Source: Bilabrum cf. latius (lineage: Eukaryota). From it: a stretch of DNA of 64,000 nucleotides. Location of the stretch: assembly GCA_965178125.1 (NCBI GenBank), contig OZ237748.1, forward strand, positions 868,001 to 932,000, in the 5' to 3' direction. The position numbers were made by a program, and so were the translations under genes. A model generated the notes under the pieces. The model saw only the letters and a program-made list of their open reading frames with translations. It was not told the origin of the DNA and did no database searches. Below are positions 23,701-61,976 of this stretch, piece after piece (position 1 is the stretch's first letter; the number at the start of each line of letters is the position of its first letter).

Positions 23701-23749
23701 CACTGGTGCATCGGGTGACGGCATCACTGCCTGACCAGGGGCATCGGGA

Positions 23750-23791
<42 letters not shown>

Positions 23792-26232: not shown

Positions 26233-26992
26233 CGCACAAGCAGCTTTTGGTTGTTTAATGCTAGGTGCTGCGCGAAGCAACGTGAAACGTGAAACGAATG
26301 AGGACGGTGTTAGATATGTACGGCTACTACACAATCCAATTCATTCCCAGAGGTGGATGATTCTGGGCGAAAAGCTCCGGCAAGTCTTGCCTGTGCCGAG
26401 GACACCACCCAAACTTGCCTACAACAGCCCACACCTCGCACATAGATAGAACATGATATTCAAACCACAATGAATGAGCGCTGGTTCGAATAATGACAGT
26501 TTTATCTGCTCAACGAGTTGTGTTCTCAGCGAATCAGGAAGCCCGTGCTGTACCTAGCCATGTGTCCAAACAAAACCATTCATTCATGATCGTCTAACAC
26601 CAAAAGGATCTCACTAGTACTTGTATCGATACAGATAGCAAACCAAAGCTATTTGCCGCGGGTAAATGCTTCAAGAAGCCTAACTATTGCATTGCAATCC
26701 GAACACACCTTGAGGCATTTTCGGTGTTTCCGATCGGATCATGCCGTGTGCATGCACAGCATGTTGCCGAGAGAGACCCCAGGGGGGAATCGCGCCTGCC
26801 TGTGTAAGTAAATAGCGTTACTCGGGCCAATTTCGTCTTTGAATGCCTCATTCAAGACAACAAGCCGCCAATCAAGATCCGATCGGAGTACTGGAACCAT
26901 CCCATCCCACATGTGCACACCACAAATCAAGGCCCCGAAGAATCCACAACCCGAGGAGAGCAAAAAGTCTTCCTAGCCCCCTTTAGCCCACA

Positions 26993-30244: not shown

Positions 30245-32512
30245 TCACTGGCCCACCCGGATTGCTTCCTCTAACAACTTCACGCAGTCGTCATGCCCCC
30301 CCAATCGAGCCGCCTCCAGCGGTCCCACCACCCTGCTCCCGCGCGCCCCGTCCTCCACCTCTCCAGTGATATGCAGCCCGCCCGCAAGCTTGCCCAGCCT
30401 CAGCCGTCTCTCTAGCTCCATGGGCCTACCATGGCTTGCCGCTTGGAAGACCATTCCAGCGTCCCTCTTGGCCTCTACTGCCCTCCTCCAGCACAGGGCC
30501 CTCCGAATTGGAGATGCAACGAATGATCGAATGACGGCTGCGGTCTCGGGTCTCACGAGAGTGTCTGCTAGCTCGGCAGGAGTCAAGCCATCCTGGTAAT
30601 TTCAGGGAAGGAGTGGCGGCATGATAGGGCGTGGGCGATGCAAATGGGTTGGTGGCGTCTCCGAAACTAGGTGCATGAGTGCAGATCGTGCAAGATAAGA
30701 AGACTCATGTGTGGGTGCTCACGCTATCCTTGACGTCCCTGCGGGCCCCTGCCTCCATGAGGATGGTGGCACTCGCGTTGCGGGTATAGTAAGCTGTGTA
30801 GTGGAGGGGTGTCGTGCCTCCTCGCTGCGGGCACAACGACATGGCAATACGAAACAAAGCATACGGTTGCATTTACATGTAGCCAGTTCCCTTTGTGTTT
30901 CTCCCAGTAGTGAGCCACCTTTGAAGAAGACTACAAATTCGATACGATTGCTATAGCACCTGTTGTATGTCTCACCGTAGTTGCGTGCACGTCCCCCCCA
31001 TTATCCAGTAAGATCTGCAGGCACTGAGGAGAACCCACCTGGGCTGTGAAATGCATCGGGGTATTCCATGCCTGGGAGGGAATCAGAACGGGATGTACGG
31101 TGCAGCAGCGTGCGGATCATGGCAATGTTGACGTCAAACGACACACACTACTAGTGCGAGGGGCCATATATGTGTGCCATGTCAACACCGTGTCAACAAC
31201 AACCCACAAGCATTCCGTCGGACTAATGTCGTGCTCAAGCCTTCATTGCAAAGAAATAAACTGCAAAAAATGTACAAGCTTGTCTAAATCTCGAGGTGGA
31301 GTCTAGTCTGTCGACTAATTGGACCGTCAAGCCACTTCCCCCCTTATAGTTGGGGGATCCGACCATACTCCTGCACAATCGCCCAATACGATACTCTGTG
31401 GTTTCTGTCTTACACTATCCACGGCATGTACATCCCCACCGTTGTCCAGAATTACCTAAAGGCAATCGGGTTGGCTTTCTTGTCCGGCTATGTGTGTAAG
31501 TGTGAGGCCAACCTGCATCAGGGATGGACGAAGGGGCGGCAGGTGGTGCATTAGCCAGGTACAAGTGAATTGCGCTATCACGCGTACAAGGAGCGCAGAG
31601 GAGTAATGCTACTCATGTGGCCAACGCAGTCCCCGGTTGCAACCAACCGACCAGAAAGTCCTAGTACTTTTAGGTACACAGTAGCCATTGGTTACATACA
31701 CCCTCTAGCCAGACAGTCGACTACGCCTGGTACACAGGCACCTCCGTCAATTTCCCAGACGAACGCGCAATTCCTCACGTTCTCAGCAGCTTCCACGTCG
31801 GCGCCCCTCTCGATGAGTAGCTTCAGGCAGTCGAGGTGGCCTTTACAAGCAGCCAACCATGCCGCCGTTTCACCCAGCTGCGGTGTATCAAACGGTAACG
31901 TGCAGAAAGAAGGATACACCAAAGTCGGCCTTTCAGACCGGGGAGGCTATGTGTATTTACAACGGCTAGCAAAAGCGATATATCCGGATCTGTATTGTCG
32001 ATCTCGATTGATACCAGGTTTTACAATCATTGATAGGCCTACTAGGGTCTTGGCAGTCCGTTTGCTGGAGCAGATGACTATGAGCACGAAGCGACATGGC
32101 GCTTGAATCATTGATATGTTGAGTTTACCTGCCAATAATGCCCCCGCCCCCACCGATGCCGCAAGAAGATGCAGCTGCATGGTCTCGCCGCGCTCCCTAA
32201 CTACCACGAGTTTATTCTAGTGCGTCAACTGTTCTAGATACCCAGCCAGAATGTCCGGCAGCCGGGCAATTAGTAGCTTTGCTAAGGCCATCCACGGGTG
32301 GTCGGCTATCTATCTATGAGTTCTTCGGTGATAGCTCACCCACGAAACCATGGAAAAAATGAGATGATGCACTCGAATGCTTGATTTCAATTTCATACGG
32401 TAATTGCCAATCTCACCGCATCTTTGGATTCAATGTAGGTCCCCGCATCTAGGCACAACCTTAGGTCGTCAATCTTGCCATTATCAGCAGCCTCAAGCAG
32501 TGCGTCTCCCCT
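30245..32512 (-). CDS. Ankyrin-repeat protein (~6 exons) with the shared C-terminal domain
   Basis: Exons GDALLEAADNGKIDDLRLCLDAG, LGETAAWLAACKGHLDCLKLLIERGAD, VGLTLTHIAGQESQPDCL*VILDNGGD, AWNTPMHFTAQVGSPQCLQILLDNGGD and GTTPLHYTAYY. The final exon ends at TGA 30245. Confidence 0.85.
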
Positions 32513-33527: not shown

Positions 33528-33646
33528 CGCCCCGGGGGGAAGGTCTAGAGACAGAACCTTGTCAACACACATCCTACTATGTGCCCCAAACGTATGAATC
33601 TAGCGCAATCGTGTTCCCTCTCTACAAGTGCCTGCGCTATCATGCT

Positions 33647-35653
33647 TTACTTATCTGTGGCATCCAACAGCAGCTCCACGCACTCGTCATGTCCCCCCAA
33701 TCGAGCCGCCTCCAGCGGACCCACCACCCTGGTCCCGCCCGCCCCGTCCTCCACCTCTCCAGTGATAGCCAGCCCGCCCGCCAGCTTGCCCAGCCTCAGC
33801 CGTCTCTCTAGCTCCATAGGCCTGCCCTCTTCAGCTGCTTGAAACACTATCTCCGCGTCCTTCTTGGCCTCCACTGCCCTCCTGTAGTAGACGAGCCTTC
33901 TGATGCGCTTAACTCTCTTCGACACGAACGACCTAATAGCGGCAGCGGTTTCGGTCTATCCTTTTGCGTCTGCATTCTCGGCCGGAGTACGGTTACTCTG
34001 CTCTCGTGAAGGTTCAGGGCGAGGCATGGGAGGGCGCTTATAGGATGTGTGGGGAATGAATAATCGGATCTGGGAGTCACGAGGACAAGTACCGCGGGCT
34101 GCAGCAATCCGACTCGGGGGAATGTGCCACGGCAGCCCACTTTGTTCTTGATGTCCCTGCGGGCCCCTGCCTACATGAGGATGATCGCATTCTCGGTTTG
34201 ACCATCGGACGCTGCCAAGTGAAGAGGAGTTTCTCCGAACTGTGCGCGAGTCCATGGCGGGTAAAATGATATAAGTTTATTGCAAGAGTAAGATCACGCC
34301 TAAATGCAATCGATGGATATTTTGTACAGCTGTCTGATGCTACCAAATGTAGCTCCCAAGAAGGGCAATACAAGGACGCAATACCAGCCAATAGTCCCAA
34401 GATAGTTATAGTGGGAACCTATGGATGATAGTCAACACCGATGAGGCCCATCAAAGGGGCTGCCAACGGCTTCATCTTCTTTAGACATCTGGTCTGCGTA
34501 GCGTTGACCCTCCCTACTAGTAGTACAGCACATCCGGATCACATGCACGCGCATCCATACTGCCTCTCACATAATTCTGCGCATTTCCGTCTCCATTGTA
34601 TTCCATGGCTACCAGCAGAGTCTATCTAGAACAACGCGACGCCTGATGCACAGATGTTAGCCCATACTGTGATGGAACGAGGGTATGGCTGTGTGGGTGC
34701 GAATGTTACCATAGGCGCGTGTACGGCTCTGATCAATTCTACATCAACTCAATAAAAACGCAACAGATCTACATGTAAGGTGGAAATATGCGCTGAATGA
34801 TTCAAAACAAGACAACAAGCGACAGTATTTCAAGATTCGGATCCATCAACCCACTCCGTACCGCGAAACCATCCGGATTCGTATCGCTCTATTTACCCTT
34901 GAGGCGATGAATTCGGTGCCGAATAATGTTGTGATCATGCATGCACATTAATCATCCCATAAGAATGCAGCCAGTATGCGCATGACGACATTCGCAACCA
35001 ACTAGTCGCTCTCACATCATCTCCGGCATTCATATCGCAGCCATGAGCAGCAAGCACTTGCAGACATCCCGTGTGGTCACCTATTGCTGCATGATGTGCT
35101 GGCGCCCACCCATACTGCTATGAAAGGGAGGTAAAGTGAGCTTTAAATGCATGGTTTGGCCCCCGATTCCGTCCAAGGGGCCGCCACTGATAGCTAGATC
35201 TACTGTGTCCAGGATGTAAGCATGATGAACACAACATCAATCAAGCGTGTTTAACATACAAAAGTAGCAATCACATGCTGCGTCACCGTGTCCATGCGCC
35301 TAAAAGCTGCCTAAACACGCACACAATCAGAAGATTAGCCCACGGGTGCGGTTGAAGGAACAAATCTAATATGTAGTCTAGGCTCAATGGATGCTATGGG
35401 GGCGGGCCAGCAAACTATGTACGAGCTAGATAGGTGCTACAGAATACCCTGATCCATTGCACCAGACCATGAGAAACATATTGGCATATCTATCAGGATG
35501 ACATACATGATGGTGAGCGAGGGTCCAGTCAGGATTTGATGCTAATCAACTCACGTTGCCGGATACGCCCACGTCGGCGCCCCTCTCTAAGAGCAGCTAC
35601 AGGCACGCCGTCTACCCGTTCTTTGCAGCGATATATGCGGCCGTCTGGCCATA
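33647..35653 (-). CDS. Ankyrin-repeat protein, tandem paralog of 30245..32512
   Basis: Exons YGQTAAYIAAKNG*TACL*LLLERGAD, YGWAPAHHAAIGDHTGCLQVLAAHGCD, FGETPLHLAASDGQTENAIILM*AGARRD and SNRTPAENADAKG*TETAAAIRSF plus the shared domain. It ends at TAA 33647, and the 5' end was not found. Confidence 0.8.
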
Positions 35654-36869
35654 CTGCATATGAGATGCATGCATGCGAAAACTGACAGAGGTGCTTAAAT
35701 GGGTGCTGGACCTTCAAATTGGTTACCTGCTGGCGCTGTAGGCAACATGTGATCTACATCGCGAGTGGGAGGACCCGGGCACGTATAGTACTACCTCCAG
35801 CCGTCGGAATTACGTGATCATTACAATAATGGACGCTTCAATTTGGTTAGTTGATAACGATCAGCGTAGTCCAAGTCACGACGCAGACTGGTTGCAAGCC
35901 GTTGTCCAGTCGCATGTATAAAGCTGGCTCCGGTAGACCCTGTCAGTGAAATAGCCAATAAATTGAAAAAGATCGCAGGTTGCTGACCCGTTCCAATAAT
36001 TCTCTCACGACATCCTTGGATTCGACGTCCGTTCCCGAATCCAACCAGGAACGAAGTTCGTCCGCCTCGCCATTCTTGGCTGCTTCTAGCATAGCATCCC
36101 CCCTTCAAACAAATTTGATATAAAATACTTAATACAAATAAAATGTTGCTACGTAACTGCATTTAAGCTCATGCGCCTTGTAAAGGCAGTCGGATAAAGG
36201 GCAACTATGAGCAGCGCCCTCCACGCGACACTGAGCATACACTAAAGACCATACAGTCGTGATAAACATTACGCATTCTCACATTTTCTAAAATTTAGAG
36301 TTCGATGGTATCAAAACACTGTGATAAGACGTGCAGTGGCTGCCAGAATTCTGGCAGACGCATCATGATGGATCGTCGTCACTGTGGCACTGCGTGGCAC
36401 CTTCATCACCCTCGGGATATTCTCGCTTAGCTGCACCCATCATGGCACGCACGCAGCATAGCTCATGAGTCAAGACCGCGTTGCATCTGAATATAAGTGC
36501 CAGCATTCGCAATCAGCAGAACCCAGGGCGCAAGGACCTGCGCCACCGCCACATGTGCCGCCGGATGGAAGCACAGTTTCGTAGAAAGGTGCTTGCTTAC
36601 TTGACTGCAGAACCAGCGCCATTAGTATCCACCTGACTCGTGGGACTAATCGCGGACCCTACAATCTGTTCTGTACCGTCCGCACGACCTCTGGAGGTGG
36701 AATCGCATGGGTCCAGCTCGCGCTGTGGACAGGCACCTGCCGCCACCCAACCAACACTAGATGGTGCCAGCTCTGGCAGTGCGGGTGCTACAGGTGAGGC
36801 GGGCGACCATGTTGCCAGCGCTGGCAGTGCGGGTGCTTCAGGACACGGTTCCTAGGCATATTTCGGTCT

Positions 36870-39527
36870 ATGCCTGGCCAACTATTTCCTTGCAGGCCTT
36901 CTCAGGTCCTGACTGGCTCCGCCAGGTGGGTCTCCTGTTCAGGGGCGCGCGTTACTTCCGTCACAGTCCTCGGGTTGTATCTGGTATTGAATTGCAAGCG
37001 AAAAATATACAACATTTTTATTCTCTCTCTCAACATTTTTATTCTCTCTCTCAAATCATGCAATACACACAAGCTGCCGAACGAAATGGTCAGCTTCTTT
37101 GATTTCGACGGTGCATGCATACTCAGCAATTATGCATCTGACTTCGAGTGGTCTTGCTTCAAAGAGAGGGTCAGGGGACTAGAGGGTACTACTAGTAGAG
37201 TGGCCAGGTGCTGGATCAACACCGAAGCATTGGGACCAGACGAAATGAGAGCAATTGCGGAGGTAATACCAAAGATTCCTGCAATTGCCTGTTTTTCAAT
37301 CAGTCAGTGGGCCAAGAAACCGTCGTCGGCTGCTTTGGGGATTTTGGCGGCAGCAGCAGAACACCTCAGAGAGCTGGAGACCATTGACGCCAATGACTTT
37401 AATGTACGAGACTCGAAGTCGGCGGGATATATATCATGTATGCTTCGCAATAATGTGGTGTCGCTTAATCGTGTTTCCCTCCGCATGGGCTTCGAGCAGG
37501 GCGCTGGGATGGATCTCGTGAGGTCCCTGTCTCAGTGCAAGAACCTCTCGACCGTCCGCTTGAGCAGGCAAAGCGGTGGAAACGAGACTGAAGCGAGTTC
37601 GGCTCTAATTGAATGCACTGGTAGGCTGCCTTCGCTTCGCGTGCTGAGCTTCTACGGCGTTTCGTCAACGAGCGTAGTCGCCAGGGCAATCGCAGACTGC
37701 AGGGGCACACTCGTGGAGGTCGAGGGGAAGGAAATGACCAGGTCAAAGAAGGAGGGAAGCGCGTCCTGCTGGCGTGCACTATCGTCGTGCGCGTCACTGC
37801 TGAAGATCACGTGGCCAGCTCCCCTGGCGTCGGACCTGGAGGGGCAGACCGCCTTGGAAGCTTGCCTGAGAGTGCATGAGGGGGTCGAGGAGGTAGTGCT
37901 GGGGAGCTTTGGGAACAACGCAGGTGACAGACGCGAAGTGGTATGCTTTCAATCCGAGGTGAACGGCATTCTATCCAATCCCAGGTGCAAGCTGAAAGGC
38001 CTTACTGTGAGTTGCCGCGTGGGAGAGGGCGACCAGTAGCATCTAGGTCGACTGTTGGCTGCCGGTGTGTCGAGCCTGGTGCGACTTAAGGTAAGGCAGC
38101 TTGGAAGTGCCGGTGTTTTGGCAGTAGGTCGCGGTTTACAATCATGCGGATGCAGGTTGCGCGAGCTGGCGCTCCAGTCCTGTAGCAGTGAGATCAGCGG
38201 GTGGGCGGCGCTGGGGGTTGCACTAAGTGGTCACGAGACGTTGAAGAAGTTGGTGGTCACTGGTAGCAATATGCAAGGGGGGGGCGCGTATCATTCGGAT
38301 GACGTCTTTCAGAGATTGGCGGATAACGTGGTCTTGGAAGAGCTGGACCTGCGGGAGAATTACGAGTTGGGGCGGGAATAGTACGCTGCACTGCATGAGT
38401 CGTTGCTAGGGAATGACACCATCAGGAAGGTGTGGACCAGCGAAAGGGTGGGTGAGGATGCGTAGTCGCTCATTAACTTGCTGCAGGAGAATCATTCAAT
38501 GGAAGTTCTTGGCTTCAACATTCCCTTGGATGGTACCACACCTGCCTCTATGGGGATGGGACGCGCCCTCGAGTCTAACTAGTCCCTTCGTTAGATGGAA
38601 GTCATGGTGGCGGCGCCAAAGGGCCTGGATGCCTTACCTGCAATCCTTGCCTCCCACCCCCACATGGAGAGGCTGAGCATTGTCAAATATGATGCTGTGG
38701 AGGTGCCGCCGGCGGCCATAGCTGCGGTGATCAAGGCGATCGAAGACAGCTGCCCGGGGATGAAACATGTAGATTGGGCGACAGGCGTCCTGGATGCATC
38801 AGATTCTAGCATGGCCAAGGTCCTTGGGACAGACAGGACACACATTGTCAGGCAGTGGATGGGCCAGGAGCCCACCCCGCAGAGGGCTGCAGGTGCCCTC
38901 CGCACGCTGGGTGGCAGGTTCAGAGACAGCCTAGATTCACATGAGGTCTGCAGGTACGCTGCCGGGGCACTCAAAGGGGCATTAGTGGCGAACGATGCGG
39001 GCGGATGCATCATCGTGGCATCTGCGTGCGCGGACGGGGTGCGGGAGAATGACGATGACAAGGACGACGAGAGTCGCGGATTCTTGATCGATGTGTCAGG
39101 ATGGGAGGGGTCGGGTCTGTGGTAGGCTGGGCAAGCCGTGGTAGGCAGGCATTTGGGGTGCGAGAGGGGCGCGGAGGAAGGACAGTGGGTGGGTGCCGTG
39201 AGAAGATGCGAGGAGATGGTGCAGTATGAGGCGATGAGGAGGCAGAGGGCCATGGCCAGGTGGATGCAGGCAGTGACGGCACGTCGGGACGCGGGGTACA
39301 TCTTTAGGTGCGCAAGGGACGGGAGGCCACTGGAGCTGGGGAAGCGGCTGAGGCTGGGGGCTAAGACGGGGGCACTGGCTGTGAAGGGCGAGTTGGAGGT
39401 GCAGGTGGGTGGAATGATGGTGAGGAGGACGGTGACGCCCCTCGGGGCAGCCAAGTTGGGAGGGCATGACGAGTGCGTGAGACTGCTAGAGGATGCAATG
39501 GGGCGGATCAAGCTGCTGTAGGGGTGA
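36870..39527 (+). CDS. RNI-like leucine-rich-repeat protein fused to the shared C-terminal domain
   Basis: LRR-like segments CRLRELALQSC, LADNVVLEELDLREN and ALESN*SLR*MEV. One frame runs through 7 TAGs (38037, 38379, 38463, 38580, 38592, 39123, 39519) to TGA 39525. The true start is uncertain. Confidence 0.8.
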
Positions 39528-40377
39528 CGTGTGACGTGTGACCAGGCAATCCGATGTGGTACCGTGTGGGTGGCTAGGGTTGTTTTACATTGAGCTCACC
39601 GAGGCAGCGTGGGCAAATTTGCATTTAAGCTCGGCAGTAGAACATCCGGATTCATCAGGCTCACAAGTCACGCCCCAGTTGCTATTTGTCGGATCCCGTG
39701 CTGGCAATTCACGCCTTGTGTCGCCACCGTAGTCTTTACCACCACATGCCACCGCCTTCCGTAGCAACTTTTTTGTCTGCTGGCCCAGTAAACCCTTGCT
39801 CAGACCCCTAGGCCCTGCTTTCTCCAGTGATCCTGCACGCCGCCCAGTACCATCACCCCCCCTTCATCCCGTGTAGTCCTAGTTCCATCCTTAGGTAACC
39901 CCGCTAAACAATCTTAATACTGGGTTTATCAAATCCGACTTCCGTATCACATTCATCGCCAGGTATAGCACGACCAGCCCAAAAACCACGCGTTGATCCA
40001 CCCGTGTAGCAAGCCGAACCGATCCAGCAGAGGCACTAGAGCGGGCAATTGCTCGGCGCATCCTGAAGATGGTTCGCTCAGCAGCAACTTCAAGTCAGCC
40101 CTTATCTAGAGGTTATGGGTGAGTTCCAAGACGTAGGCCATGGTCCGCCCATGCCTTCCTCTATCTTGCCCTTCTCCTCTGAAGTTCGACTGGCCCAGTC
40201 ACCGGAGACCCACTCTGCCTGAAGATTAGGTGACTGCAGCGATGACTCTCGACGAGTCATCTCCACAGCCACCTTGTCAGTCAGCTCTGGAGTAGGGGAA
40301 CAGGAACGAGGGTAAATACCCGCACGAACACGAAGGATCAATCGTCCAATAGAGCCAAGTGATAAAATGTGTGGGGG

Positions 40378-41710
40378 TCTGATATTTTGTGGACTTACTC
40401 AAAAGCGCACGCTATCACGAAGAAACATCTGGAACGAGGGCCCGGGACCTACCAGACTTCACGCTTCAGCTGCAATGGCCTAAACCACCTAAGCTCCACC
40501 CTGAGGACCCATTTCCCCCTGGGGAGCGCCATCGTTCACGTTCCCTCCGGCGCCCGCTGCCGGCACCCCGTCCTGCTGCCCGTTCTGAGCCAACCCTGCC
40601 TTGACGTTGGCGATCGCCACGGCGAGGTTGTTGTTTTCGGCTGCCCCTACAGACAGGCTGGCAAAGTCCTCCTGGACCGCCCTTGCGAGCGCCCGTTTGG
40701 CCTTCGCTGCAGCCCTCCTCGATCCCTTCGAGACAAAATCGAGGATCCTTGAGTGGTCCTGCATGACCCGTGAGTACATAGTGTGGTACACACGCTGTTC
40801 CCCGTGCACGTGCTGGTGCTAGGCGGCGACAAGAGAGGCGAGACTTTGCCACATTAGACCACGAGAGGCGCGCGTTGGCCGGACGAGTCGAAACCCGCCG
40901 CCCTGTGTCCTCCTACCTCTTCTTCCGCAGCTTATCGAGCACATACAGGAACTCGACCTACTTCTCTCCGATTCCCCCCAACACGTCCACCACAAAGGGT
41001 ACGACCCGCGCGCCACTGCACACCGCCCCTTCCTGTGTCCTCACAGCCCCTGGACACCACTTGTCTTCTCCTGCGATCCGGACGCCGAGCGCTCCGATGT
41101 CGACGGGCCTGCCGTAGCTGATCAGCTTCGTGGCATGCGCGGCCCGCAAAGCAGACCCCTCTTGCCAGTCGCTGCCAATCCTCCACGACGAGCGGTCCCA
41201 CCGGTAAGTTGCCGCAGTGGAATCAACCACCGTGGTATCGATGAGATAAACCGTCCCCTCGTGCTCAAAGAACAGGTCGCCTCGTGGCACGAGCGGACCG
41301 CGCCGACCCGGCAGCCGGGCCACTTGGCCCTCTGGCTCCCGGATAGGGCGTCTGCCCGTGGCCTCGCGGACCACCTGCTCGAGCACGTTGAGCACCCGGA
41401 AGTGCCTGCGGCCTGGAAGGCCTCCGCAGGCTCGCTTGTCCTTGCACGTGGCACCGTGGCGAGCTGACTAGATCAGCTCGACTACCTTGCCCTGCTTCCG
41501 GCACCCCGGGCAGATCTGTGTGACGCGCTACGCCTCCTCACATGCACCGTGCGTTGCCCCAAGAGGTTGTGGGGGACAGCTGCACGGCTATGGGATGGCG
41601 AGACGCGGGCAGAACATGCCCTAGGCATCTTGAGGCTGGACTCGGCTCAGGACAGAGAGCGGCGCATGCAGCCAAGACCCGGCTCCTTGGGACCTGGCGA
41701 ATTTGTGATT
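40378..41710 (-). mobile_element. 5'-truncated non-LTR retrotransposon fragment with a restriction-like endonuclease (CRE-like), copy 1, frameshifted
   Basis: PRGDLFF...YLIDTTVVD...AAHATKLISY...VVPFVVDVLGGIG is RLE-like. It has a 1-nt insertion near 40830 relative to copy 2, and no RT domain is visible. Confidence 0.75.
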
Positions 41711-41937
41711 TATAATTAATGCAGTGTACTTTACCAGTGTACGCCCTCATAGTGCGTAGTTTATGGAATCGTGATGACAGAGCAACGTGTGCGATACTAT
41801 TTTTATTACAAACTGTTTTCACCGTTCCGTCAAGACATAGCTATCTTACGCTTGCAAGACGAACGCATTCGGCAGTTCGTAGTTGCGAACACGGACGTGA
41901 GAAATTGCTCATTGGCTTGACAATCATCCTCGCAGCC

Positions 41938-43945
41938 ATGCAATATAGTCATTAAATGTGATGTTAATTGTACCCATCTTGGGATGACCATACTTAGCGT
42001 GCCCTGTCCTACTGCATCTTGGAACTATCATCCTCGTCTTCGCACCGTGCAACCTCTGCTTCGCAGGCCTTGCTGGAAGCATTTATCCAAAAGGATTTGC
42101 CTGTGTGGTTTTGGAATATGTTGAGAGACGTTCGAGTGGACTTTACGTGCACTGTTAGTTCTTGGTCCAAGATACGTGCTCCATGCTACATCGCCCCTGC
42201 AGCCCGCAATTATATCGTGCTTAGGATTAAAACGTCATCAATATATTCGCATTTTTGCAGAAATTCGTATGGGGATTTGACAAGTGGTCACACTTTGCTA
42301 CTTCGATGCAAGTATGTCAGGCTGCTAACCTGCTACTGTCATGGGGCGTACCCCCCGTGAGTCCAATGGGAAATTTGGTTCAGTTATTGAGCAAGCAGGC
42401 ACGGGAGGCGGAGTCTTGGGTGTAAAATAGTATTCCACTCATCAAACACACAAAACAGTGATGTCTGCAAATTGCAAACTCTTTCCATAACGTGTTCAAT
42501 TGTTCGGGATGTTAACATCTATGTTTTCCCCACTGCAGGAACTGTACACTCTGCCTTTTGCTGGCTTGAGATGTCAAATTATGCACGGCGCGGATATATT
42601 CTCGAACGTCAGTTACTTGTACCGCATGTTAGCTCTGCTTTATTGCTTGGCTCCAAGACAACTTGTACAGGCACACGTTCGCTGGCATGTCTGTATGCAA
42701 ATATTAACAGTATTTGCGAGTGCCCTCCTCTGTAACAGTTGCGCATAGCGGCAATTACTGGTTTGTATGAAAATGATTATCAGTTAACCTTGAAAGAATA
42801 CACAACGCTGGGATTGTCAACGGGTCACCTTTTACATCTCCTTTCAGCTAGGTGCTTGCAACTGAAGTGTTCCGCAGCAATTCAGCCTGCTGAGATACAT
42901 ATCATCATTTGAAACTGATAGCTTGCAGCGATCTGTGAATTTGATGCTGGATGCAGGCAGCTTCGTAGACACTAGGTATACTGTAAGACAATTGCTGCTC
43001 GAAACAATATGGTGATCGCTATGCTAGGTTACAGAGTGGGATAGATCGATTCCCTCTTTTATTAATCTTTTACCCAATGCAGGTGCAAAGACAGTTGGTA
43101 TCGTACATAATCATGTGCACGGCTGCCGATCAAACATGTCCAAGCCATGCATTGCATGATGTGTTGGGTCGCGGAGGAGACCCAGACATAGTGGGAGCGG
43201 AGACAACAGTTTCCTGCAGTGTGGATGGCCATCTGCAGTAGTTACTGCGACACGGGGCGAATCCCAACTAGCTTGACCGTGTAAGAGTGTATGCACTAGG
43301 CCTGATCTGCACACTTTGAATGTCGCAACTGCGGCGTAAATCGTTAAATTTGTGTTGACTGTTATACAATGCTGTCCACAGAATGGGGTGCCGCTCATTG
43401 TTAAATTGGTATGGGACTTCCGCTTTGCTGATCTTATGCACGCGCTTGCATATGGTGCTACGATTGACGGGTTTTCCGCAAAATGGGATACCGGGGGTGT
43501 CATGGTCAAGAAGCCGCCAAAGGGCGTTAGTGCAGCACCCGTCTGGTTTAGTGAGATGCTTACGTAGTGTCGGGGAAACGAGCAGGTGCTGTTACGAAGT
43601 ATGCTTGATTTCAAGCGAATACAAGTAGATAGCCGGGGATGCGTGCGAACTGCGCTCCTGCCTGGGGACCCAAGGCAGAGAGCAAATGCCCTGCTGGTGT
43701 TTCGAAGGGCACATGAGGCGCACCGTGACGCTGCAATGCTTTTTAAAGCAGCTGCTGAAGGCAGGCCGATGGAACTCGCTAAGCGGTTTAGATTAGGGAA
43801 ATTAGCCGGCGGCTTGCAGCGGCGTGGCAGGCTTGCACTTCCTCATGGCAAAGTCCTACTGGCTACTCCACTGGAAGCAGCTCGAATGGGTGGCCATTTG
43901 GACTGCGTTGCTGTATTAGAATCTAAAATAGCACCCGGGCGCTGA
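41938..43945 (+). CDS. Multi-exon hypothetical protein with the shared C-terminal domain; exon structure partly resolved
   Basis: QALLEAFIQKDLPVWFWNMLRD at the 5' end. The last exon NGVPLIVKLV...MLT*CRGNEQ...RRAHEAHRDAAMLFKAAAEGRPMELAKRFRLGKLAGG ends at TGA. Confidence 0.6.
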
Positions 43946-44090
43946 CTTCGTCCGCAAGAGGTCATGGGCTAGCCGTACCAAAAGGATGCTTACGAATGTG
44001 ATGTTGGTATGCTCTAAGTACTAATATGTATGGATTATCCAAGGATCCGGATTGCTGGATAAACCAATCAAGCGAGAAGCTCTGTCCAAG

Positions 44091-44570
44091 TCATGCAACA
44101 ACCACGAACGAGTGCAAGTACGCATTTGCAGTACCATAGTACAGCTCCCAGTCAGCTGGCTCGGCGGCCTTTGTATTCCTCGTGAAGAGGCCAGCCATTA
44201 CTAGCCTGGGGACCACCTTTCCGATGGTGGTCAGGGCAGTAGCAGCATCTGCACACTATACCCGATCGCGATTTTCAAGCATTCGCACAGGATCTACTGG
44301 CGCTGGTATCACTGCTTTGGCCGGATCCCTGCGGAAACCTTTTAGTATGGCCCTCTCAAGTTCTTCCTAGGCGTCAACTTGACGAAGGTCAAGGTAAAAT
44401 CCTGGAAGAGATGCGGTTGCGGGGAGAAATGCTCTACCAAGTTTTGGTATTTAAGGAGACAGAGTCTGATTCGTTGTTGACGTCAAATGAGATGATAAGC
44501 GTCTGTGCGATGAGGATGGCTCTGCGAAGAAGGAGAACGCCGCAACACCTTGTCCGTAGGTGGGGGGGAA
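44091..44570 (-). pseudogene. 3' fragment of a paralog of the element-interrupted gene (48501..59014)
   Basis: IGKVVPRLVMAGLFTRNTKAAEPADWELYYGTAN is near-identical to 48539-48635. It ends at TGA 44091 and its 5' side abuts retroelement copy 2. Confidence 0.6.
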
Positions 44571-45905
44571 TCTGATATTTTGTGGACTCAACTCAAAAGC
44601 GCACGCTATCACGAAGAAACATCTGGAACGAGGGCCCGGGACCTACCAGACTTCACGCTTCAGCTGCAATGGCCTAAACCACCTAAGCTCCACCCTGGGG
44701 ACCCATTTCCCCCTGGGGAGCGTCAGCGTTCACGTTCCCTCCGGCGCCCGCTGCCGGCACCCCGTCCTGCTGCCCGTTCTGAGCCAACCCTGCCTTGACG
44801 TTGGCGATCGCCACGGCGAGGTTGTTGTTTTCGGCTGCCCCTACAGACAGGCTGGCAAAGTCCTCCCGGACCGCCCTTGCGAGCGCCCGTTTGGCCTTCG
44901 CTGCAGCCCTCCTCGATCCCTTCGAGACAAAATCGAGGATCCTTGAGTGGTCCTGCATGACCCGTGAGTACATAGTGTGGTACACACGCTGTTCCCCGTG
45001 CACGTGCTGGTGCTAGGCGGCAACGGAGAGGCGAGCCTTTGCCACAGAAGACCACGAGAGGCGTGCGTTGGCCGGACGAGTCGAAACCCGCCGCCCTTTG
45101 TCCTCCTACCTCTTCTTCCGCAGCTTATCGAGCACATACAGGAACTCGACCTACTTCTCTCCGATTCCCCCCAACACGTCCACCACAAAGGGTACGACCC
45201 GCGCGCCACTGCGTACCGCCCCTTTCTGCGTCCTCACGGTCCCAGGACACCACTTGTCTTCTCCTCCGATCCGGACGCCGAGCGCTCCGAGGTCGACGGG
45301 CCTGCCGTAGCTGGCCAGCTTCGTGGCATGCGCGGCCCGCAAAGCAGACCCCTCTTGCCAGTCGCTGCCAATCCTCCACGAGGGGCGGTCCCACCGGTAA
45401 GTTGCCGCAGTGGAATCAACCACCGTGACATCGATGAGATAAGCCGTCCCCTCGTGCTCAAAGAACAGGTCGCCTCGTGGCACGAGCGGACCGCGCCGAC
45501 CCGGCAGCCGGGCCACTTGGCCCTCTGGCTCCCGGATAGGGCGTCTGCCCGTGGCCTCGCGGACCACCTGCTCGAGCACGTTGAGCACCCGGAAGTGCCT
45601 GCGGCCTGGAAGGCCTCCGCAGACACGCTTGTCCTTGCATACGTGGCACCGTGGCGAGCTGACTAGATCAGCTCGACTACCTTGCCCTGCTTCCGGCACC
45701 CCAGGCAGGTCTGCGTGACGCGCCACGCCTCCCCACATGCACCGTGCGTTGCCCCAAGAGGTTGTGGGGGACAGCTGCACGGCTATGGGATGGCGAGACG
45801 CGGGCAGAACATGCCCCGGGCATCTTCAGGCTGGACTCGGCTCAGGACAGAGAGCGGCGCATGCAGCCTAGACTCGGCTCCTTGGGACCTGGCGAATTTG
45901 TGATT
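44571..45905 (-). mobile_element. 5'-truncated RLE non-LTR retrotransposon fragment, copy 2
   Basis: Highly similar to 40378-41710, with a Cys/His cluster CHVCKDKRVC...RH. The frame is open through 5 TAGs, including ARLSVAA*HQH, to TGA 44653. Confidence 0.8.
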
Positions 45906-46178
45906 ATTGATTTATGCAGTGTACTTTACAAAAACCTGGCCGTGTCGGTGTATGGTCGGTGGTGGTATATTTTTTAGTGTAATGAACGATCAACGCGTAC
46001 GCTAGCATCTGTACTATAAGGTATTTTCACCTTTTTGCCAAGAAGTCGCGATTGCTCGATTGCAAGACGATCGAACTCGTGATTTTGTCATTACGAACGT
46101 CGATGTGAGGTTTCAAGTTAAACGGCATGGGATAGCTCCATAATAAGGTTGGTTTGGGATAAATGATCTGATTTCGCG

Positions 46179-47963
46179 ATGCGGCCCCAGCAAAACAGAA
46201 CGTTGGCCCTGGGAAAGCACTTCGTTGCCTGTCGCATACAAGCCAAAGTTCTTTGTTGCGCCGGGAAGTCTAGTGTAGCGCAGGCCCTGCTGGCAGTTTT
46301 CATTCAAAAACCCCTCCCATTGTGGTTTTGGAGCATTCTACGGGATATCGGAGTATACTTTGACAGCATTGTGGGTGTATCGAAAGGGAATACACTTCGT
46401 CCGTTCGGATTCGCTCAGAAAGATTTTGTCACTGTGAAGAAATATATATCCTCAATGCTCGCAGAAGTTCATCATTGGTTTTCGAGAGTGGGCGCACTTT
46501 GCGTAGTTCCAAAATTTGTCTGAGACCGTGCACCTTTTGCTGTCGTGGGGGGTGCCGCCCGTGAGACGTTTGTTCTTGTAGTTCTCCTTGCTGACTGCCA
46601 TGCCGGCCATTACCGCACAACGTACATAACACAGTGTTGTTGTTTTTTTAAAAGACTATTTGGAGTAGGAGTTATACCAGCTGCCGTACGCTGGCTTACA
46701 GCACTAGCTTCGTCACGGTGCTGACATCCATTCCGGAGTAAGTAGATCTATCCAAATTACAACCGTATGCTATCCTCAGGAAATCGTACAGAGCGTGCAT
46801 CCACTTGTAACTACTTCATAATTTCTGCAGAGTTCCCAGTATGTCCGTTTCATCTCAACACACGATGAAGACCACTTGGTTGATGCCGTGGATGACCTGT
46901 TCAACTCCGGGCACTACATTGAGTTGAAGTCGGGGGTAAGCGGAACTCAACCGTGTGTTGCCGAGCAATATAATATTTCTTGAGCTGGTGCATTGCGCAG
47001 TGTTGCCTGAAACTTATGCTTGCACCGCAGAGACTTGGAACGTCTTGTATCGCGGATACAAGCTCTTGTCATGAATGGTGGCCGAAGCGTGCCTTATCTA
47101 ATGTAATCATGCGAGGGGCCGATCCTAACTCGCCTGCAAAAAGGTTTGAATTCAAATACATGAGGCAAGGTAGCATTCCTTACCTGCTCCGTCATGGCGC
47201 CGACCCATTCTAGTGCGATATGGTGAGGTAGAAGCTTGCAAGTGCGATTCCACTACAATGTGTGATACTGTCATTGCGGTGCTTCGTAGACCGCATGATA
47301 AGTTGGAAAATGCAGGTTGGTTATAGTGCCTCGTGTCTTGTCTACATCCATGCACACGTAACAGGTATTTGAGCACTTACCAACAGATCGATAACTTCGT
47401 AGAATGGAGTACCGATGATTGCACAGCTGGTACTATGCTGGAAGTTCATCGACCTCATGCATCTGCTGGCGTGGGGTGTAGCGATTGATGGCGTACTGGA
47501 GAATGGAAGGACAGTGCTTGACATGATCTAGAACCCACCCAAAAGCGCAAGGCTGCGCTCGCCGGCATGGTATGCGGACGTTCATAAGCAAGCAAGGGGT
47601 AACCCGCAGTTGCTCCTGCGAGCTCTGCTTGATAGAAAATCGCTACAATTAGATGAGCATGGCCGTAGCTTGGGCTAAGTACTACCTCCAGACCCAAGAC
47701 AGAAGACTAATACGTTGCTACTGTGGCGACGAGCGCACGAGGCACACAGGGATGCCGCGATAGTTTTTCGAGCGGCAAAGGAGGGGAGGCCTCTCGAGCT
47801 TGCAAAACGACTGCAGCTGGGCAAACTGGCGGGCGGAGTATCCATGCGTCTGAACATCGAGTTGCCAAGTTCTAAAAGAATTGTACTCGCATCCCCTCTT
47901 GAGGCTGCTCGCGTTGGCGGACATTTTGACTGTGTCAGACTGCTAGAGCAAAACTACTAGTAA
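46179..47963 (+). pseudogene. Diverged paralog of 41938..43945, possibly pseudogenised
   Basis: QALLAVFIQKPLPLWFWSILRD and NGVPMIAQLV align to the paralog, and the shared domain ends TAG-TAA. One in-frame TAA lies at 47676. Confidence 0.5.
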
Positions 47964-50299
47964 ACCAGTGTTACTGATTCTGTGGTTTTATTTTACTTTT
48001 GGCGGTATTCCCTAGGCCTACCATCACAAACGAGTAAGCTGTGACGCGGCACTCACTGACGCCTAAGCCTAGATCTAGCCAAAACCTTACTATCCGGATT
48101 GCCTGACCGTACCCGTACGGGTACAGATGTGATGGGTCTGTATCATCCGGATTCTAATAGTAATCCTTGATAGACAGCGGTGATTTCCGAAACAGCTGGG
48201 CAGTTCCAAAGACCAAGGATCCGCAGATCCCCACTTGCGCTGACTGACGAGCAGCTTAAAACTATGTTTTGGGTACAGCAAGGGCTATGGATTCTTAATA
48301 CATCGTATTGCATTACCGTATCCAGGAATTGTCGGCAGACACCAATGTCCAGAATCAGGTATACCCGGTATGCTACGTAGCCGGGTAGCTAACCTTAGTC
48401 TAGCTACACCATCCACCCCTGTCAAAAATGCTTGATATTATGTTGATCCATAAAATGCTACCCCTACAATTATGAGGTTGAGTTCACGTTAACATTGAAG
48501 TTACTCAACAATCACAAAGGAGTGGAAGTATGTGTTAGCAGTACCGTAGTACAGCTCCCAGTCAGCTGGCTCGGCGGCCTTCGTATTCCTCGTAAAGAGG
48601 CCAGCCATTACTAGCCTGGGGACCACCTTTCCGATCGTTCTTAACGATCCATCTACGCCTGCACATGGGTCTGGACGACCTGCAAAGGCATCGCCGAAAT
48701 CTGAACCAAGCGTGGATGCGCCACGCTTTACAGCTTCTTCGAACACGCGATTTTCCAAGAGTTGAAGCGTATTGTAAGGCTCTATAGACTCTCCTGGTAG
48801 CTGAACGACTTTGAGTCTTCTACATGCGGCCACGATCTCATCAACTGGTCTCTTTCCGAACAGCTCCGTCATGCCCCTGAGGGGATCTATCACTGCGAGA
48901 TTGTTTCGTCTTGGTCTACAGTCCTCGCTACGATGCTTGGCTCTCAGGGCGGTGGCGTATTGCCACCTTTGTAGACACGCGTGTGTCTAGTGACCGACCT
49001 GGCTCTATCTCCAGGTCATGTGCTAGTGGTCGGGCAGCCCTGGTATGGGCTGCCGAGTCACCATGCCTCACGGCTCTGCCAAGACTTGGATTGTCTTGGC
49101 GAAGCGGTTACAACCGCTAATAGCGCGGAGCAACAGCCCTGTATCGATTCACTGCCAGTCAGTGCTTGCCCAAGGGGGAAGGTGGGCGGGTAAAATGTGA
49201 TGAGTTACGAATGAAAAGACTGGCGATGGGATGCGATAGTAGGCACTGCTGAAGTAGCGCGGCAGTGGTAGTAACTGCGGGGATGGTGGGTGGGTTCAAA
49301 ACAACAAGCAGTGGGAATCACCTCCTCTGGAGTTGCCCCTGCCTGTCTTCCCAGTGTGTATTGCCACATAATGACAATTATTACTGAGAATATCGGGGCA
49401 CAGCTGTAGAACACAGGTGCCACCGAAATTCCGAACAAGTGAGAGCCTCACATCTGCGCTCGGACTTGCGACCAATACTACACAATCTCTCCGATCTAAA
49501 TCACTTCGTAACGTGCCTCCGTACCTACGGCACACAACTGACGGGATCTATCACTGCGAGATTGTTTCGTCTTGGTCTACAGTCCTCGCTACGATGCTTG
49601 GCTCTCAGGGCGGTGGCGTATTGCCACCTTTGTAGACACGCGTGTGTCTAGTGACCGACCTGGCTCTATCTCCAGGTCATGTGCTAGTGGTCGGGCAGCC
49701 CTGGTATGGGCTGCCGAGTCACCATGCCTCACGGCTCTGCCAAGACTTGGATTGTCTTGGCGAAGCGGTTACAACCGCTAATAGCGCGGAGCAACAGCCC
49801 TGTATCGATTCACTGCCAGTCAGTGCTTGCCCCGCCGTTACCCACATGCGGGGTATTGCACTGACGTGGTATTGCCCTTTGCCGTATGTAATGCCACGTC
49901 GAAAGCGTGTGTATGGCCAGGTATCAAAGTGAACTCCCAGTGCTGTGCACGGCCACTCAATGCATTGGTAGGTAAACCGATGCAAAGTTGTGTCACGAAA
50001 TCCCAAGCTGTATTCCGAAATGCTACTTCTTCCCTCCATCCAAAACGATTGCATTCAAACTCCCAAAACGATTGCACTCAAACCTAGAAGAACTTCTCAT
50101 TCAAACTCCCAATATGAATCTCCCACAATCGTCTAGGATGGCATAGACTATTGCAAAACCTGTATCACTACGAAATGTCCATTAAACTATAGACACTAAC
50201 CAACAAAACTCCCATAATAACAAAGACCAGATGGTCAACGCCAATTGCAGATCTTGGCCAATGCCACAATGCCAGGGCCAACAACACGATGGTGGCCCC

Positions 50300-61354: not shown

Positions 61355-61976
61355 CGTCCAGGGATGGCACCTCAGGAAGACCGAATATCGAAATAATGCT
61401 TATGTTGATAACCGAATTTCCCTGCGCGGTTTCAACGAATTTCCGCTAAGAATAGCCAGAAGAAAGACATTGTTACAGTGCAATGAATTCGGTAAAATGT
61501 GGTTGTAGGGTGTTATTTATATCGAAACAGAAACAAGGTCAATCAGGCCGTACAAAAGTAGCTGCGGTCATTTGATTGCAGATGTCTGGGCGTAAGTTGA
61601 CCGATATGATATTCTACGGTGATTTTCGTGCTATGATAAAAGTTGTGGTGCTCTCGAATGACAGTTGCACTTGCTGATGCTAATCCACGAGTCGGAAGAT
61701 TCATGGCTGGCTGTTAATGCCGGCATTGCCTGCATTTAATGCGCACTCTGCATCATCACATAGGCTAGTGACTTGTTTGGGGCCGCTGCGAGGCTCTGAT
61801 CCGTGTCTGCCAGGTGCTGCTGTCATGTTGAAGTCTATGCGCCGAATTTGGTGTGCTTCGTCGCGGAGACGGCGCTGCAATAAGACAAACTGCAGCTACA
61901 AACACTCTAATATGTTACATATGACACGTTTACACTTCACACCGTCGGCATGTCGTATCTCTCGCGATCTTCGCAG

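What the first reader, a model, noticed from the sequence alone, without database searches (positions are those of the whole stretch)
33647..48503. UAA appears to remain a stop, so UAG and UAA are uncoupled
Seen: TAA ends one paralog (HSFVIVE-TAA, 48501) at the exact position where the other has TGA (HSFVVVA-TGA, 44091). TAA also closes shared-domain genes at 33647 and 47961, where relatives end in TGA. Long AT-richer ORFs use CAA and many TAGs but no TAA. Counter-example: one in-frame TAA at 47676, perhaps a nonsense mutation. Established: UAA and UAG almost always change meaning together; Iotanema spirale (UAG=Gln) and the rhizarian exLh (UAG=Leu) are rare exceptions.
Basis: partly seen in the sequence, partly recalled or inferred. 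Interest (0 to 1): 0.8.

Follow-up and report, generated by a model that had tools for sequence, protein, structure and literature searches.

The report
UAG coding, UAA still a stop
This protist genome reads the stop codon UAG as an amino acid, probably glutamine, yet still ends genes with UAA and UGA, a rare split between two codons that normally change meaning together.

Summary
The window is eukaryotic nuclear DNA with GT-AG introns. Its BiP groups with bicosoecid stramenopiles.

TAG is a sense codon:
- It sits in an unbroken, conserved stretch of BiP.
- It occurs 47 times in 9,150 codons of 11 long ORFs.
- It occurs 5 times in a spliced, expressed ORF.

TAA and TGA never occur in those ORFs. 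About 11 TAA would be expected from the CAA:CAG ratio (P about 4e-6).

TAA also behaves as a terminator. A lineage-specific C-terminal domain has 6 copies in the window and 72 usable copies in metagenome loci. TAA ends 2 of the 6 window copies and 20 of 71 metagenome copies. TAA tails are as short as TGA tails (median 12 against 9 codons). Reading through TAA to the next TGA would give a median of 72.5 codons.

One paralogue pair loses DNA similarity exactly at TGA in one copy and TAA in the other.

One exception is real: TAA at 47676 is in frame in a spliced transcript, and 94 open codons follow it.

Glutamine is the best fit for TAG but is not proven. New here: TAG is 6 to 10 times enriched just upstream of terminators.

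No tRNA or eRF1 gene could be examined. This is a new lineage for a known rare code type.

The parts
27554..27556 (-). In-frame TAG in BiP/HSP70 (gene 26993..29065, ends GEEL-TGA)
   Evidence: Pfam HSP70 E=5e-255. The TAG sits in DNH-TAG-LGKF with no gap in the alignment. The closest relative P0001 has Q there. Among 120 homologues the column reads L 83, I 17, Q 10, V 5, A 3, M 2.
33647..33919 (-). Family copy c33: C-terminal domain 33650-33919, TAA terminator at 33647-33649
   Evidence: HMM hit iE 1.5e-44. The tail is LLLDATDK-TAA. No TGA follows within the 50 in-frame codons shown after the TAA.
30245..30508 (-). Family copy c30, TGA terminator at 30245-30247
   Evidence: It is 88% identical in DNA to c33 over 215 nt.
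10841..11278 (-). Family copy c11 with a TAG inside the domain, a 60-codon tail and a TGA terminator
36798..39527 (+). 909-codon ORF with 7 in-frame TAG and no TAA. Family domain at 39228-39512. It ends TAG-GGC-TGA.
   Evidence: One X6 contig covers 37106-39042 without a difference.
43340..45825 (.). Three features: last exon of paralogue a43 (plus strand, TGA 43943-43945); o44 (minus strand, 44091..44450, TGA); repeat ORF p44 (minus strand, 44653..45825, TGA, 5 TAG)
   Evidence: An X6 contig runs 43382-43984 across the a43 TGA.
45952..47963 (+). Expressed, spliced gene a47. Introns: 46105-46283, 46371-46464, 46561-46668, 46738-46830, 46935-47029, 47222-47401. It has 325 codons with 5 TAG, then TAA at 47676-47678, then 94 open codons holding the family domain, and ends TAG-TAA at 47958-47963.
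   Evidence: GT..AG joints in X6, X7 and X8 and none in X5. Spliced frame. The 5' limit of exon 1 is my guess.
48501..48878 (-). o48: shares its last 46 codons with o44 and ends in TAA where o44 has TGA
   Evidence: Its only database relative, P0121, ends at the same residue.
754..3156 (-). 800-codon repeat-rich ORF with no TAG. It ends in TAA at 754-756, and two more TAA and several TAG follow soon after.
17713..26340 (-). 2,875-codon ubiquitin hydrolase ORF with 5 TAG and no TAA, bounded by TGA on both sides
   Evidence: Pfam UCH E=6.7e-36.

Best explanation
The organism uses a nuclear code in which UAG is a sense codon, most likely glutamine, while UAA and UGA remain terminators. UGA is the commoner of the two. 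This matches NCBI table 15 and the code of Iotanema spirale.

The mechanism is inferred, not shown. I infer a tRNA with anticodon CUA, which pairs with UAG but not UAA, probably derived from tRNA-Gln(CUG). I also infer an eRF1 that has lost or weakened its recognition of UAG but still recognises UAA and UGA.

The TAA at 47676 is most simply a recent nonsense mutation in the last exon of one member of a large gene family. A stop in the last exon would not be expected to trigger mRNA decay.

The excess of TAG just upstream of terminators is most simply left over from former TAG stops, with genes now ending at the next TGA or TAA.
For: Shown, UAG is sense:
- TAG lies in a conserved, gap-free part of BiP.
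- 39 TAG lie in 8 ORFs that are TGA-bounded on both sides, and 47 in 11 ORFs.
- 5 TAG lie in a 325-codon frame that exists only after six GT-AG introns are removed. Contigs of three runs show the joints and carry these letters unchanged.
- 19 TAG lie in 5,166 domain-core codons of 72 metagenome relatives.

Shown, UAA is not used as sense:
- TAA is 0 of 9,150 codons in the window ORFs, where CAA/(CAA+CAG)=0.233. P(0 TAA among 47 TAR codons)=4e-6.
- TAA is 0 of 5,166 codons in the relatives' cores.
- The same frames carry 46 TAA in the 4,088 codons after the terminator.
- TAA is not rare in the window as a whole: 386 and 351 on the two strands.

Shown, UAA terminates:
- In the domain family the first TAA-or-TGA after the anchor Cys is TGA in 51 loci, TAA in 20 and absent in 1, out of 72.
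- Median tails are 9 and 12 codons, Mann-Whitney p=0.81. The TAA loci read on to TGA give a median of 72.5, p=1.7e-6.
- HMM scores of TAA-ended and TGA-ended copies are equal, 91.9 against 91.7.
- Terminator contexts are not splice donors.
- Window copies end TAA 2, TGA 4.
- In o44 and o48, similarity ends at TGA in one and TAA in the other.

Glutamine:
- The closest BiP relative has Q at the TAG column. Q is seen in 10 of 120 homologues and E in none.
- Two TAG sit in a family column that is Q in 72 of 80 sequences.
- The paralogue endings Cq** and CQ** correspond.

Mechanism: the reasoning on the CUA anticodon and on eRF1 comes from Panek et al. 2017, section 9, which I read.
Against: - One in-frame TAA (47676) sits in an otherwise intact, spliced, expressed ORF. 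Behind it come 94 open codons encoding a well-conserved domain. The paralogue has GCG at that place, so this was not a simple CAA-to-TAA change.
- In two metagenome copies (L036, L069) TAA lines up with the Q that comes one codon before the usual TGA.
- The amino acid is not settled. Without the first ten alignment columns the family log-odds favour E (+19.5) over Q (+3.3). The commonest residue at the BiP column is L.
- TAG sits at the conserved-Q column only 2 times out of 19 core TAG, fewer than expected for a plain synonym of CAG (my arithmetic).
- TAG is strongly enriched next to terminators, so some TAG may still terminate.
- The terminator statistics rest on one gene family, mostly from metagenome relatives that need not be the same species.
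- No tRNA or eRF1 gene was seen.
- Whether X6-X8 are RNA runs is the tool's guess, supported only by the splice joints.
Confidence: 0.8

Rival explanations
1. Ordinary UAR=Gln code (NCBI table 6). On this reading both UAA and UAG encode glutamine, UGA is the only stop, and TAA is merely rare because the genome is GC-rich.
For: One in-frame TAA in an expressed ORF. TAA aligns with Q one codon before the usual stop in L036 and L069.
Against: TAA is 0 against 47 TAG in the window although CAA makes up 23% of CAR codons (P=4e-6). It is 0 against 19 in relatives. The 20 TAA-first family copies would gain tails with a median of 72.5 codons against 9 for TGA copies (p=1.7e-6). In o48, similarity to its paralogue ends at the TAA.
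Confidence: 0.04
2. UAA has two uses. It is the usual terminator near the 3' end but is sometimes translated or read through inside a gene, as at 47676, so that a47 still makes its C-terminal domain.
For: The 94 codons after TAA 47676 are open and score as a full domain (iE 1.1e-44). The transcript is spliced and present in three runs. Dual UAA use is reported for Blastocrithidia nonstop (abstracts seen in the listing).
Against: This is the only such site in about 14,700 coding codons examined. A young nonsense mutation in a last exon would look identical. A tRNA(CUA) could not read UAA.
Confidence: 0.08
3. UAG has two uses. It is sense inside genes but still a terminator, perhaps a leaky one, close to the 3' end. 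On this reading some of the TGA and TAA terminators counted here are really backup stops.
For: TAG density is 18 of 676 in family tails against 19 of 5,166 in cores (Fisher 2e-8). In the window it is 6 of 204 in the last 12 codons against 43 of 9,229 elsewhere (p=6e-4). At positions -1 and -2 it is 7 of 176 against a background of 0.43% (p=1.3e-5). Examples in the window: TAG-TAA at 47958 and TAG-GGC-TGA at 39519.
Against: Where a subfamily has a fixed stop position, TAG replaces Q or D upstream and the TGA stays in its usual place, as in Cq** against CQ** and IDqSCQ* against IDDTCQ*. Relics of former TAG stops predict the same enrichment. The data here cannot separate the two.
Confidence: 0.15
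4. UAG is sense but encodes leucine or glutamate, not glutamine. The split from UAA would still hold.
For: The BiP column is L in 83 of 120 homologues. Family TAGs often fall in columns rich in E or D, and without the first columns the log-odds favour E. UAG=Leu is known in the rhizarian exLh and in some ciliates.
Against: L is not among the five best-scoring residues in any run of the family analysis, where TAG sits in polar columns. E is absent from the BiP column. Q is the only residue compatible with both data sets. Two TAG fall in the conserved-Q column.
Confidence: 0.2
5. The code is standard, and the TAG-bearing frames are pseudogenes, introns or assembly errors.
For: The region 30-50 kb is rich in repeats and paralogues, and one family member carries a premature TAA.
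Against: BiP has a TAG in an otherwise perfect 640-residue alignment. TAG occurs in frames that contain no TGA or TAA over thousands of codons. Contigs from four runs carry the same letters. Independent metagenome relatives show the same pattern.
Confidence: 0.01

Closest known systems
Iotanema spirale (Fornicata) nuclear code: UAG=Gln, UAA and UGA stop (Panek et al. 2017, PMC5304391; abstract and section 9 read)
   Same: UAG is sense, probably Gln, and UAA is kept as a terminator, so the two codons have different meanings. The inferred mechanism is also the same: a tRNA with anticodon CUA and an altered eRF1.
   Different: In I. spirale UAA is the primary terminator (abstract). Here UGA dominates, at about 70-75% of terminators. 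The lineage is unrelated, since BiP groups with bicosoecid stramenopiles, and this genome is GC-rich with introns. The eRF1 and tRNA could not be compared.
UAG-only reassignments in ciliates: Protocruzia tuzeti and two phyllopharyngean lineages (UAG=Gln), others UAG=Leu (McGowan et al. 2024, PMC11687900; two Discussion passages read)
   Same: UAG is reassigned while UAA is retained as a stop, and this has arisen independently several times.
   Different: The window is not a ciliate by its BiP affinity and its ordinary GT-AG introns of 93-355 nt.
Rhizarian exLh (UAG=Leu) and Scotinosphaera (UAG=Ser)
   Same: UAG is sense and UAA is a stop.
   Different: The amino acid differs. Leu and Ser fit the polar family columns poorly.
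UAR=Gln codes (NCBI table 6: many ciliates, hexamitin diplomonads, some ulvophytes, oxymonads, Amoeboaphelidium)
   Same: UAG is read as Gln.
   Different: In those codes UAA is also Gln. Here TAA is absent from coding frames and ends genes.
Context-dependent codes (Condylostoma, Parduczia, Blastocrithidia nonstop)
   Same: Possibly the TAG excess near 3' ends and the single internal TAA.
   Different: TGA is never in frame here, at 0 of 14,316 codons. TAA is in frame only once. There is no evidence that position decides the meaning of a codon.

Membership tests
UAG=Gln / UAA,UGA=stop code (NCBI table 15 type; Iotanema-type) | UAG occurs in frame in conserved and expressed genes | tested here: met
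   TAG lies in a conserved, gap-free part of BiP. There are 47 TAG in 9,150 ORF codons, 5 in the spliced a47 frame and 19 in 5,166 core codons of relatives.
UAG=Gln / UAA,UGA=stop code (NCBI table 15 type; Iotanema-type) | UAG is translated as glutamine | tested here: inconclusive
   For Gln: Q in the nearest BiP relative and in 10 of 120 homologues with no E, two TAG in a conserved-Q family column, and Cq** against CQ**. Against: the family log-odds switch to E when the first columns are left out, and L is commonest at the BiP column.
UAG=Gln / UAA,UGA=stop code (NCBI table 15 type; Iotanema-type) | UAA terminates translation and is not used as a sense codon | tested here: met
   TAA is 0 in 9,150 plus 5,166 coding codons. 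It is the first stop in 20 of 71 family copies, with tails like those of TGA copies (p=0.81) and unlike read-through tails (p=1.7e-6). It ends 2 of 6 window copies, and o48 ends in TAA where o44 has TGA. One exception at 47676.
UAG=Gln / UAA,UGA=stop code (NCBI table 15 type; Iotanema-type) | UGA terminates translation | tested here: met
   BiP ends GEEL-TGA in line with its homologues. TGA is never in frame in 14,316 codons. It is the first stop in 51 of 71 family copies.
UAG=Gln / UAA,UGA=stop code (NCBI table 15 type; Iotanema-type) | A tRNA with anticodon CUA is present and none with UUA | not testable with these tools
   No tRNA was found in the window (ARAGORN, Rfam). The 80 loci gave only one, doubtful call: a tRNA-Lys (ttt) in L048 with a 312-nt intron, which I take to be spurious. 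No genome is held for the window.
UAG=Gln / UAA,UGA=stop code (NCBI table 15 type; Iotanema-type) | eRF1 is altered in its stop-codon recognition motifs (GTS, NIKS, YxCxxxF) | not testable with these tools
   eRF1 is not in the window, and the genome is not available.
UAR=Gln code (NCBI table 6) | UAA occurs in frame opposite Gln in conserved genes | tested here: not met
   No TAA in BiP, the ubiquitin hydrolase, the Aph-1 ORF or the other ORFs. None in the family cores.
Context-dependent stop/sense codes (Condylostoma or Blastocrithidia type) | All or several stop codons, UGA included, are used as sense inside genes | tested here: not met
   TGA is 0 of 14,316 codons, and TAA is 0 in these counts plus 1 in a47.

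The most novel reading that the evidence does not exclude
The code is caught part-way through a change. UAG would be decoded as an amino acid inside genes but would still act, or acted until recently, as a terminator at gene ends. That would explain why it piles up at positions -1 to -12 before TGA and TAA, and why TGA-TGA tandems are common. UAA, normally a stop, would be read through at 47676 to produce the C-terminal domain of a47. This would be position-dependent decoding of two codons in a stramenopile-like lineage in which I found no variant code reported.
Probability: 0.15. Interest if true: 0.85.

Novelty: new member of a known kind. Interest (0 to 1): 0.66.

Why it matters
UAG and UAA almost always change meaning together. 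Each independent case where they split shows that the translation machinery can tell them apart, and narrows down how: a CUA-anticodon tRNA together with an eRF1 that drops only UAG.

The papers I read list a handful of such cases, in a fornicate, a rhizarian, a green alga and several ciliates. My three searches found none in stramenopiles. A GC-rich, intron-bearing genome with public DNA and apparently RNA data would be a useful new system.

There is also a practical point. Gene callers using the standard code will truncate or split many of this organism's genes at TAG. Callers using table 6 will run through real TAA stops.

The TAG excess just before terminators, if it marks former stops, records how genes survive a stop-codon reassignment.

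Tried and rejected
- No whole genome is held for the window, so genome-wide counts, tRNA genes and eRF1 could not be reached.
I then scanned chosen ORFs instead.
- No RNA holder is listed for the window. Three runs that the tool guessed to be RNA did show splice joints when laid. Parts without contig cover say nothing.
- tRNA searches gave nothing usable. The only ARAGORN call in the loci has a 312-nt intron and is probably spurious.
- Counting TAA in TGA-bounded ORFs of the metagenome loci was not clean. Those frames run through introns and past TAA terminators, and gave 104 TAA and 240 TAG in 58 ORFs of at least 300 codons. I draw nothing from it.
- Walking upstream from the domain meets TAA and TGA about equally, 21 against 22 within 80 codons, with 29 loci meeting neither. 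The examples inspected look like intron ends. This was not informative.
- I tested whether TAA or TGA after the domain might be part of a splice donor (GTAAG or GTGAG), and rejected it. Base -1 is G in only 5 of 15 TAA and 14 of 46 TGA cases, and the following bases do not fit.
- A homologue search with o48 found one protein. A search with the family profile found 24 proteins, none named. Neither gives a function or an organism name.
- Pfam finds nothing in the family domain, o44, o48, p40 or p44.
- The amino acid for TAG could not be settled from the family alignment.
- The TAG in the Aph-1 ORF (window 60959-60961, codon 147) may be an intron's 3' end, so I gave it no weight in the argument, although that ORF is one of the 11 counted.
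- Searching papers for the 11-nt motif as a string found only unrelated primer matches.


Full report
**What the window is.** No genome is held for it. It is 64 kb at about 57% G+C and contains no tRNA or Rfam match. Pfam recognises three genes: an HSP70 of the BiP type at 26993..29065 on the minus strand (E=5e-255), a ubiquitin C-terminal hydrolase at 17713..26340 on the minus strand, and an Aph-1 ORF at 60299..61399 on the minus strand. The BiP frame has no start codon or signal peptide ahead of the conserved N-terminus, so a 5' intron is likely. Contigs of three public runs show canonical GT..AG joints. This is therefore eukaryotic nuclear DNA with introns. The closest BiP is an unnamed metagenome protein, P0001, at 94% identity. 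The next are at about 81%, among them Cafeteria roenbergensis and Bicosoecida sp. ms1. In a quick single-gene tree the window and P0001 fall in an 18-row clade (SH-aLRT 97) with those two bicosoecids. Florenciella, Gloeochaete and Brassica fall outside it. The careful search did not finish, and few rows carry names. The lineage is therefore 'bicosoecid-like stramenopile', held loosely.

**Checking the observation.** All coordinates are right. ...HSFVIVE-TAA ends at 48501. ...HSFVVVA-TGA ends at 44091. TAA stands at 33647 and 47961. TAA at 47676 is in frame with the ORF that follows it. The two 'HSF' ORFs share 141 nt at 89% identity. Their differences are mostly at third codon positions, and the similarity ends 3 nt after the stop codon, which is TGA in one and TAA in the other. 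The only database relative, P0121, ends at the same residue.

**UAG is a sense codon.** BiP has TAG at 27554-27556, inside DNH-TAG-LGKF, in an alignment without gaps. Across 11 ORFs (9,150 codons) the counts are TAG 47, TAA 0 and TGA 0. Three of these ORFs are bounded upstream by TAA. Window-wide counts on the two strands are TAA 386 and 351, TAG 576 and 580, and TGA 815 and 978. At those rates, chance would put about 53 TAA and 128 TGA into that many codons (my arithmetic).

The gene at 45952..47963 gives independent proof. Runs X6, X7 and X8 join six GT-AG introns, and X5 does not. The spliced sequence has one frame of 325 codons carrying 5 TAG. The contigs carry these letters unchanged.

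**UAA is not used as sense.** In the 11 ORFs CAA is 23% of CAR codons, and the A-ending share is 24-25% for Lys and Glu codons. If TAA were used like CAA, about 11 of 47 TAR codons would be TAA. The chance of seeing none is 4e-6.

**UAA terminates.** A lineage-specific domain of about 85 residues recurs six times in the window. Its motifs are ...RRAxEAxRDA..F.AA.EGRP.EL...GKLAGG...PLEAAR.GGH..C..LLE. Five copies end 5 to 12 codons after the 'CVxLL' motif: two at TAA (33647, 47961) and three at TGA (30245, 39525, 43943). The sixth has a 60-codon tail that ends in TGA.

A scan of metagenome contigs with this alignment matched 593 stretches. Of these, 116 encode a relative and 80 loci were kept, totalling 197,546 nt. 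After near-duplicates were removed, 75 remained, and 72 of those have the anchor Cys (L057, L065 and L080 were dropped). The results from these 72 are:
- From domain start to anchor (5,166 codons) there are 19 TAG, no TAA and no TGA.
- The first TAA-or-TGA after the anchor is TGA in 51 loci, TAA in 20 and absent in 1.
- Tails are equally short: median 9 codons for TGA and 12 for TAA. 39 of 51 and 15 of 20 are at most 16 codons. Mann-Whitney p=0.81.
- If the 20 TAA loci are read on to the next TGA, the median is 72.5 codons, only 3 of 20 are at most 16, and p=1.7e-6.
- TAA-ended copies are not degraded. Median HMM scores are 91.9 against 91.7.
- After the terminator the same frame fills with stops: TAA 46, TGA 93 and TAG 52 in 4,088 codons.
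- The terminators are not hidden splice donors.
- Close paralogues put TAA where others have TGA. L006 reads CQ-TAA-QEQASLT, and L008 reads CQ-TGA-RE..ASLT.

**The exception.** TAA at 47676-47678 lies in the last exon of the spliced gene, in frame. It is followed by 94 open codons that form a full family domain (iE 1.1e-44) and end TAG-TAA. Contigs of X6, X7, X8 and X5 carry it unchanged. The paralogue a43 has GCG there, in a poorly conserved linker. A recent nonsense mutation in one member of a family of more than a hundred is the simplest reading. A stop in a last exon would not be expected to trigger decay, though that is general knowledge and was not tested here. Read-through or rare sense use is not excluded. 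In two metagenome copies (L036, L069) TAA aligns with the Q one codon before the usual TGA. That fits either a harmless loss of one residue or sense use.

**Which amino acid.** Among 120 BiP homologues the TAG column reads L 83, I 17, Q 10, V 5, A 3, M 2 and no E. The nearest relative has Q. In the family, 34 TAG positions give Q the best log-odds (+19.7 bits, with R next at -18.0). Leaving out the first ten alignment columns gives E +19.5 and Q +3.3. Those early TAGs are genuine coding positions and not splice acceptors. Two TAG fall in a column that is Q in 72 of 80 sequences, and Cq** matches CQ**. Gln is the only residue that fits both data sets. I put it at about 0.75.

**A further pattern.** TAG is concentrated just upstream of terminators:
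- In family tails of at most 25 codons, TAG is 18 of 676 against 19 of 5,166 in cores (Fisher 2e-8).
- In the window, TAG is 6 of 204 in the last 12 codons of 17 ORFs against 43 of 9,229 elsewhere (p=6e-4).
- At positions -1 and -2 before the terminator, TAG is 7 of 176 against a background of 0.43% (p=1.3e-5).
- 10 of 46 short-tailed TGA terminators are TGA-TGA tandems.

The simplest reading is that former TAG stops survive as sense codons in front of the next stop. The alternative is that TAG still terminates near 3' ends. The sequence alone cannot tell these apart.

**Mechanism (inferred).** Following Panek et al. 2017 (abstract and section 9 read), a sense UAG beside a stop UAA requires a tRNA with anticodon CUA. 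That tRNA is one mutation away from tRNA-Gln(CUG). It also requires an eRF1 with weaker recognition of UAG. Neither gene could be examined.

**Comparison and novelty.** The code type is known. UAG=Gln with UAA kept as a stop is reported for Iotanema spirale, Protocruzia tuzeti and two phyllopharyngean lineages. UAG=Leu is reported in the rhizarian exLh and some ciliates, and UAG=Ser in Scotinosphaera (Discussion passages of McGowan et al. 2024; abstract). Three full-text searches turned up no stramenopile case. I did not see the organism's name, so I cannot say whether its sequencers have reported this code. I file it as a new member of a known kind. Unlike I. spirale, where UAA is the main stop, UGA dominates here.

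**Verdict.** The main gaps are genome-wide counts, tRNA and eRF1 genes, and protein-level evidence.

Noticed in passing
36 sites, e.g. 17964-26013 (minus strand, 21 sites), 19795-22936 (plus strand, 4 sites), 62734-63922 (plus strand, 7 sites), 2462, 13520-14603: The 11-nt word TGTGACGAGTG, usually preceded by GG, occurs 36 times in the window. Composition predicts 0.024. It also occurs 13 times in the 197 kb of metagenome loci. In ORFs it is mostly in the sense orientation and is read as G-V-T-S, 17 times in the ubiquitin hydrolase and 7 times in the ORF at 61925. Four times it is read as C-D-E, including a conserved CxxC. It is never in the frame that would give TGA. The synonymous positions never vary, so the constraint acts on DNA or RNA and not on the protein. 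There is none between 26013 and 62734. A string search of papers found nothing relevant.
   Followed up: partly
last 1-12 codons before terminators, e.g. 47958-47960, 39519-21, and loci L019, L028, L040, L041: TAG is 6 to 10 times enriched just upstream of TGA and TAA terminators, and TGA-TGA tandems are frequent (10 of 46). These could be former TAG stops or TAG that still terminates.
   Followed up: partly
40369-41734 and 44560-45929: A 1.37-kb repeat at 96% identity carries a 390-426-codon ORF with TAG conserved at the same positions in both copies. It has no Pfam match. A 'D...IDVTVV...K' stretch reminds me of restriction-like endonucleases of retroelements. That resemblance is recalled and was not tested.
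   Followed up: no
50253-54110: A tandem satellite with a period of about 128 bp, copies 75-82% alike, and a strong A-over-T skew.
   Followed up: no
48877-49171 = 49538-49832; 49294-49549 = 56885-57140; 44445-44564 = 60029-59911: Short dispersed repeats at 98-99.7% identity surround the finding. The region 30-57 kb is rich in repeats and paralogues.
   Followed up: no
26993-29065 (minus strand): The BiP frame has no Met or signal peptide before the conserved GIDLGTTYS start, so a 5' exon must lie upstream. The protein ends GEEL rather than the more familiar KDEL or HDEL, and so do its closest relatives.
   Followed up: no
35654-36008 and 36102-36281: Two joints with CT..AC ends in X6-X8 point to a spliced minus-strand gene between the family copy at 33.6 kb and the 909-codon ORF. 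I did not model it.
   Followed up: no
754-3156, 5042-7621, 33212-33533: Long, perfect in-frame tandem peptide repeats: AVPGGAVQDEEQ about 40 times, GGAMGGARVPPA about 20 times, and a 60-nt repeat. All lie inside open frames.
   Followed up: no
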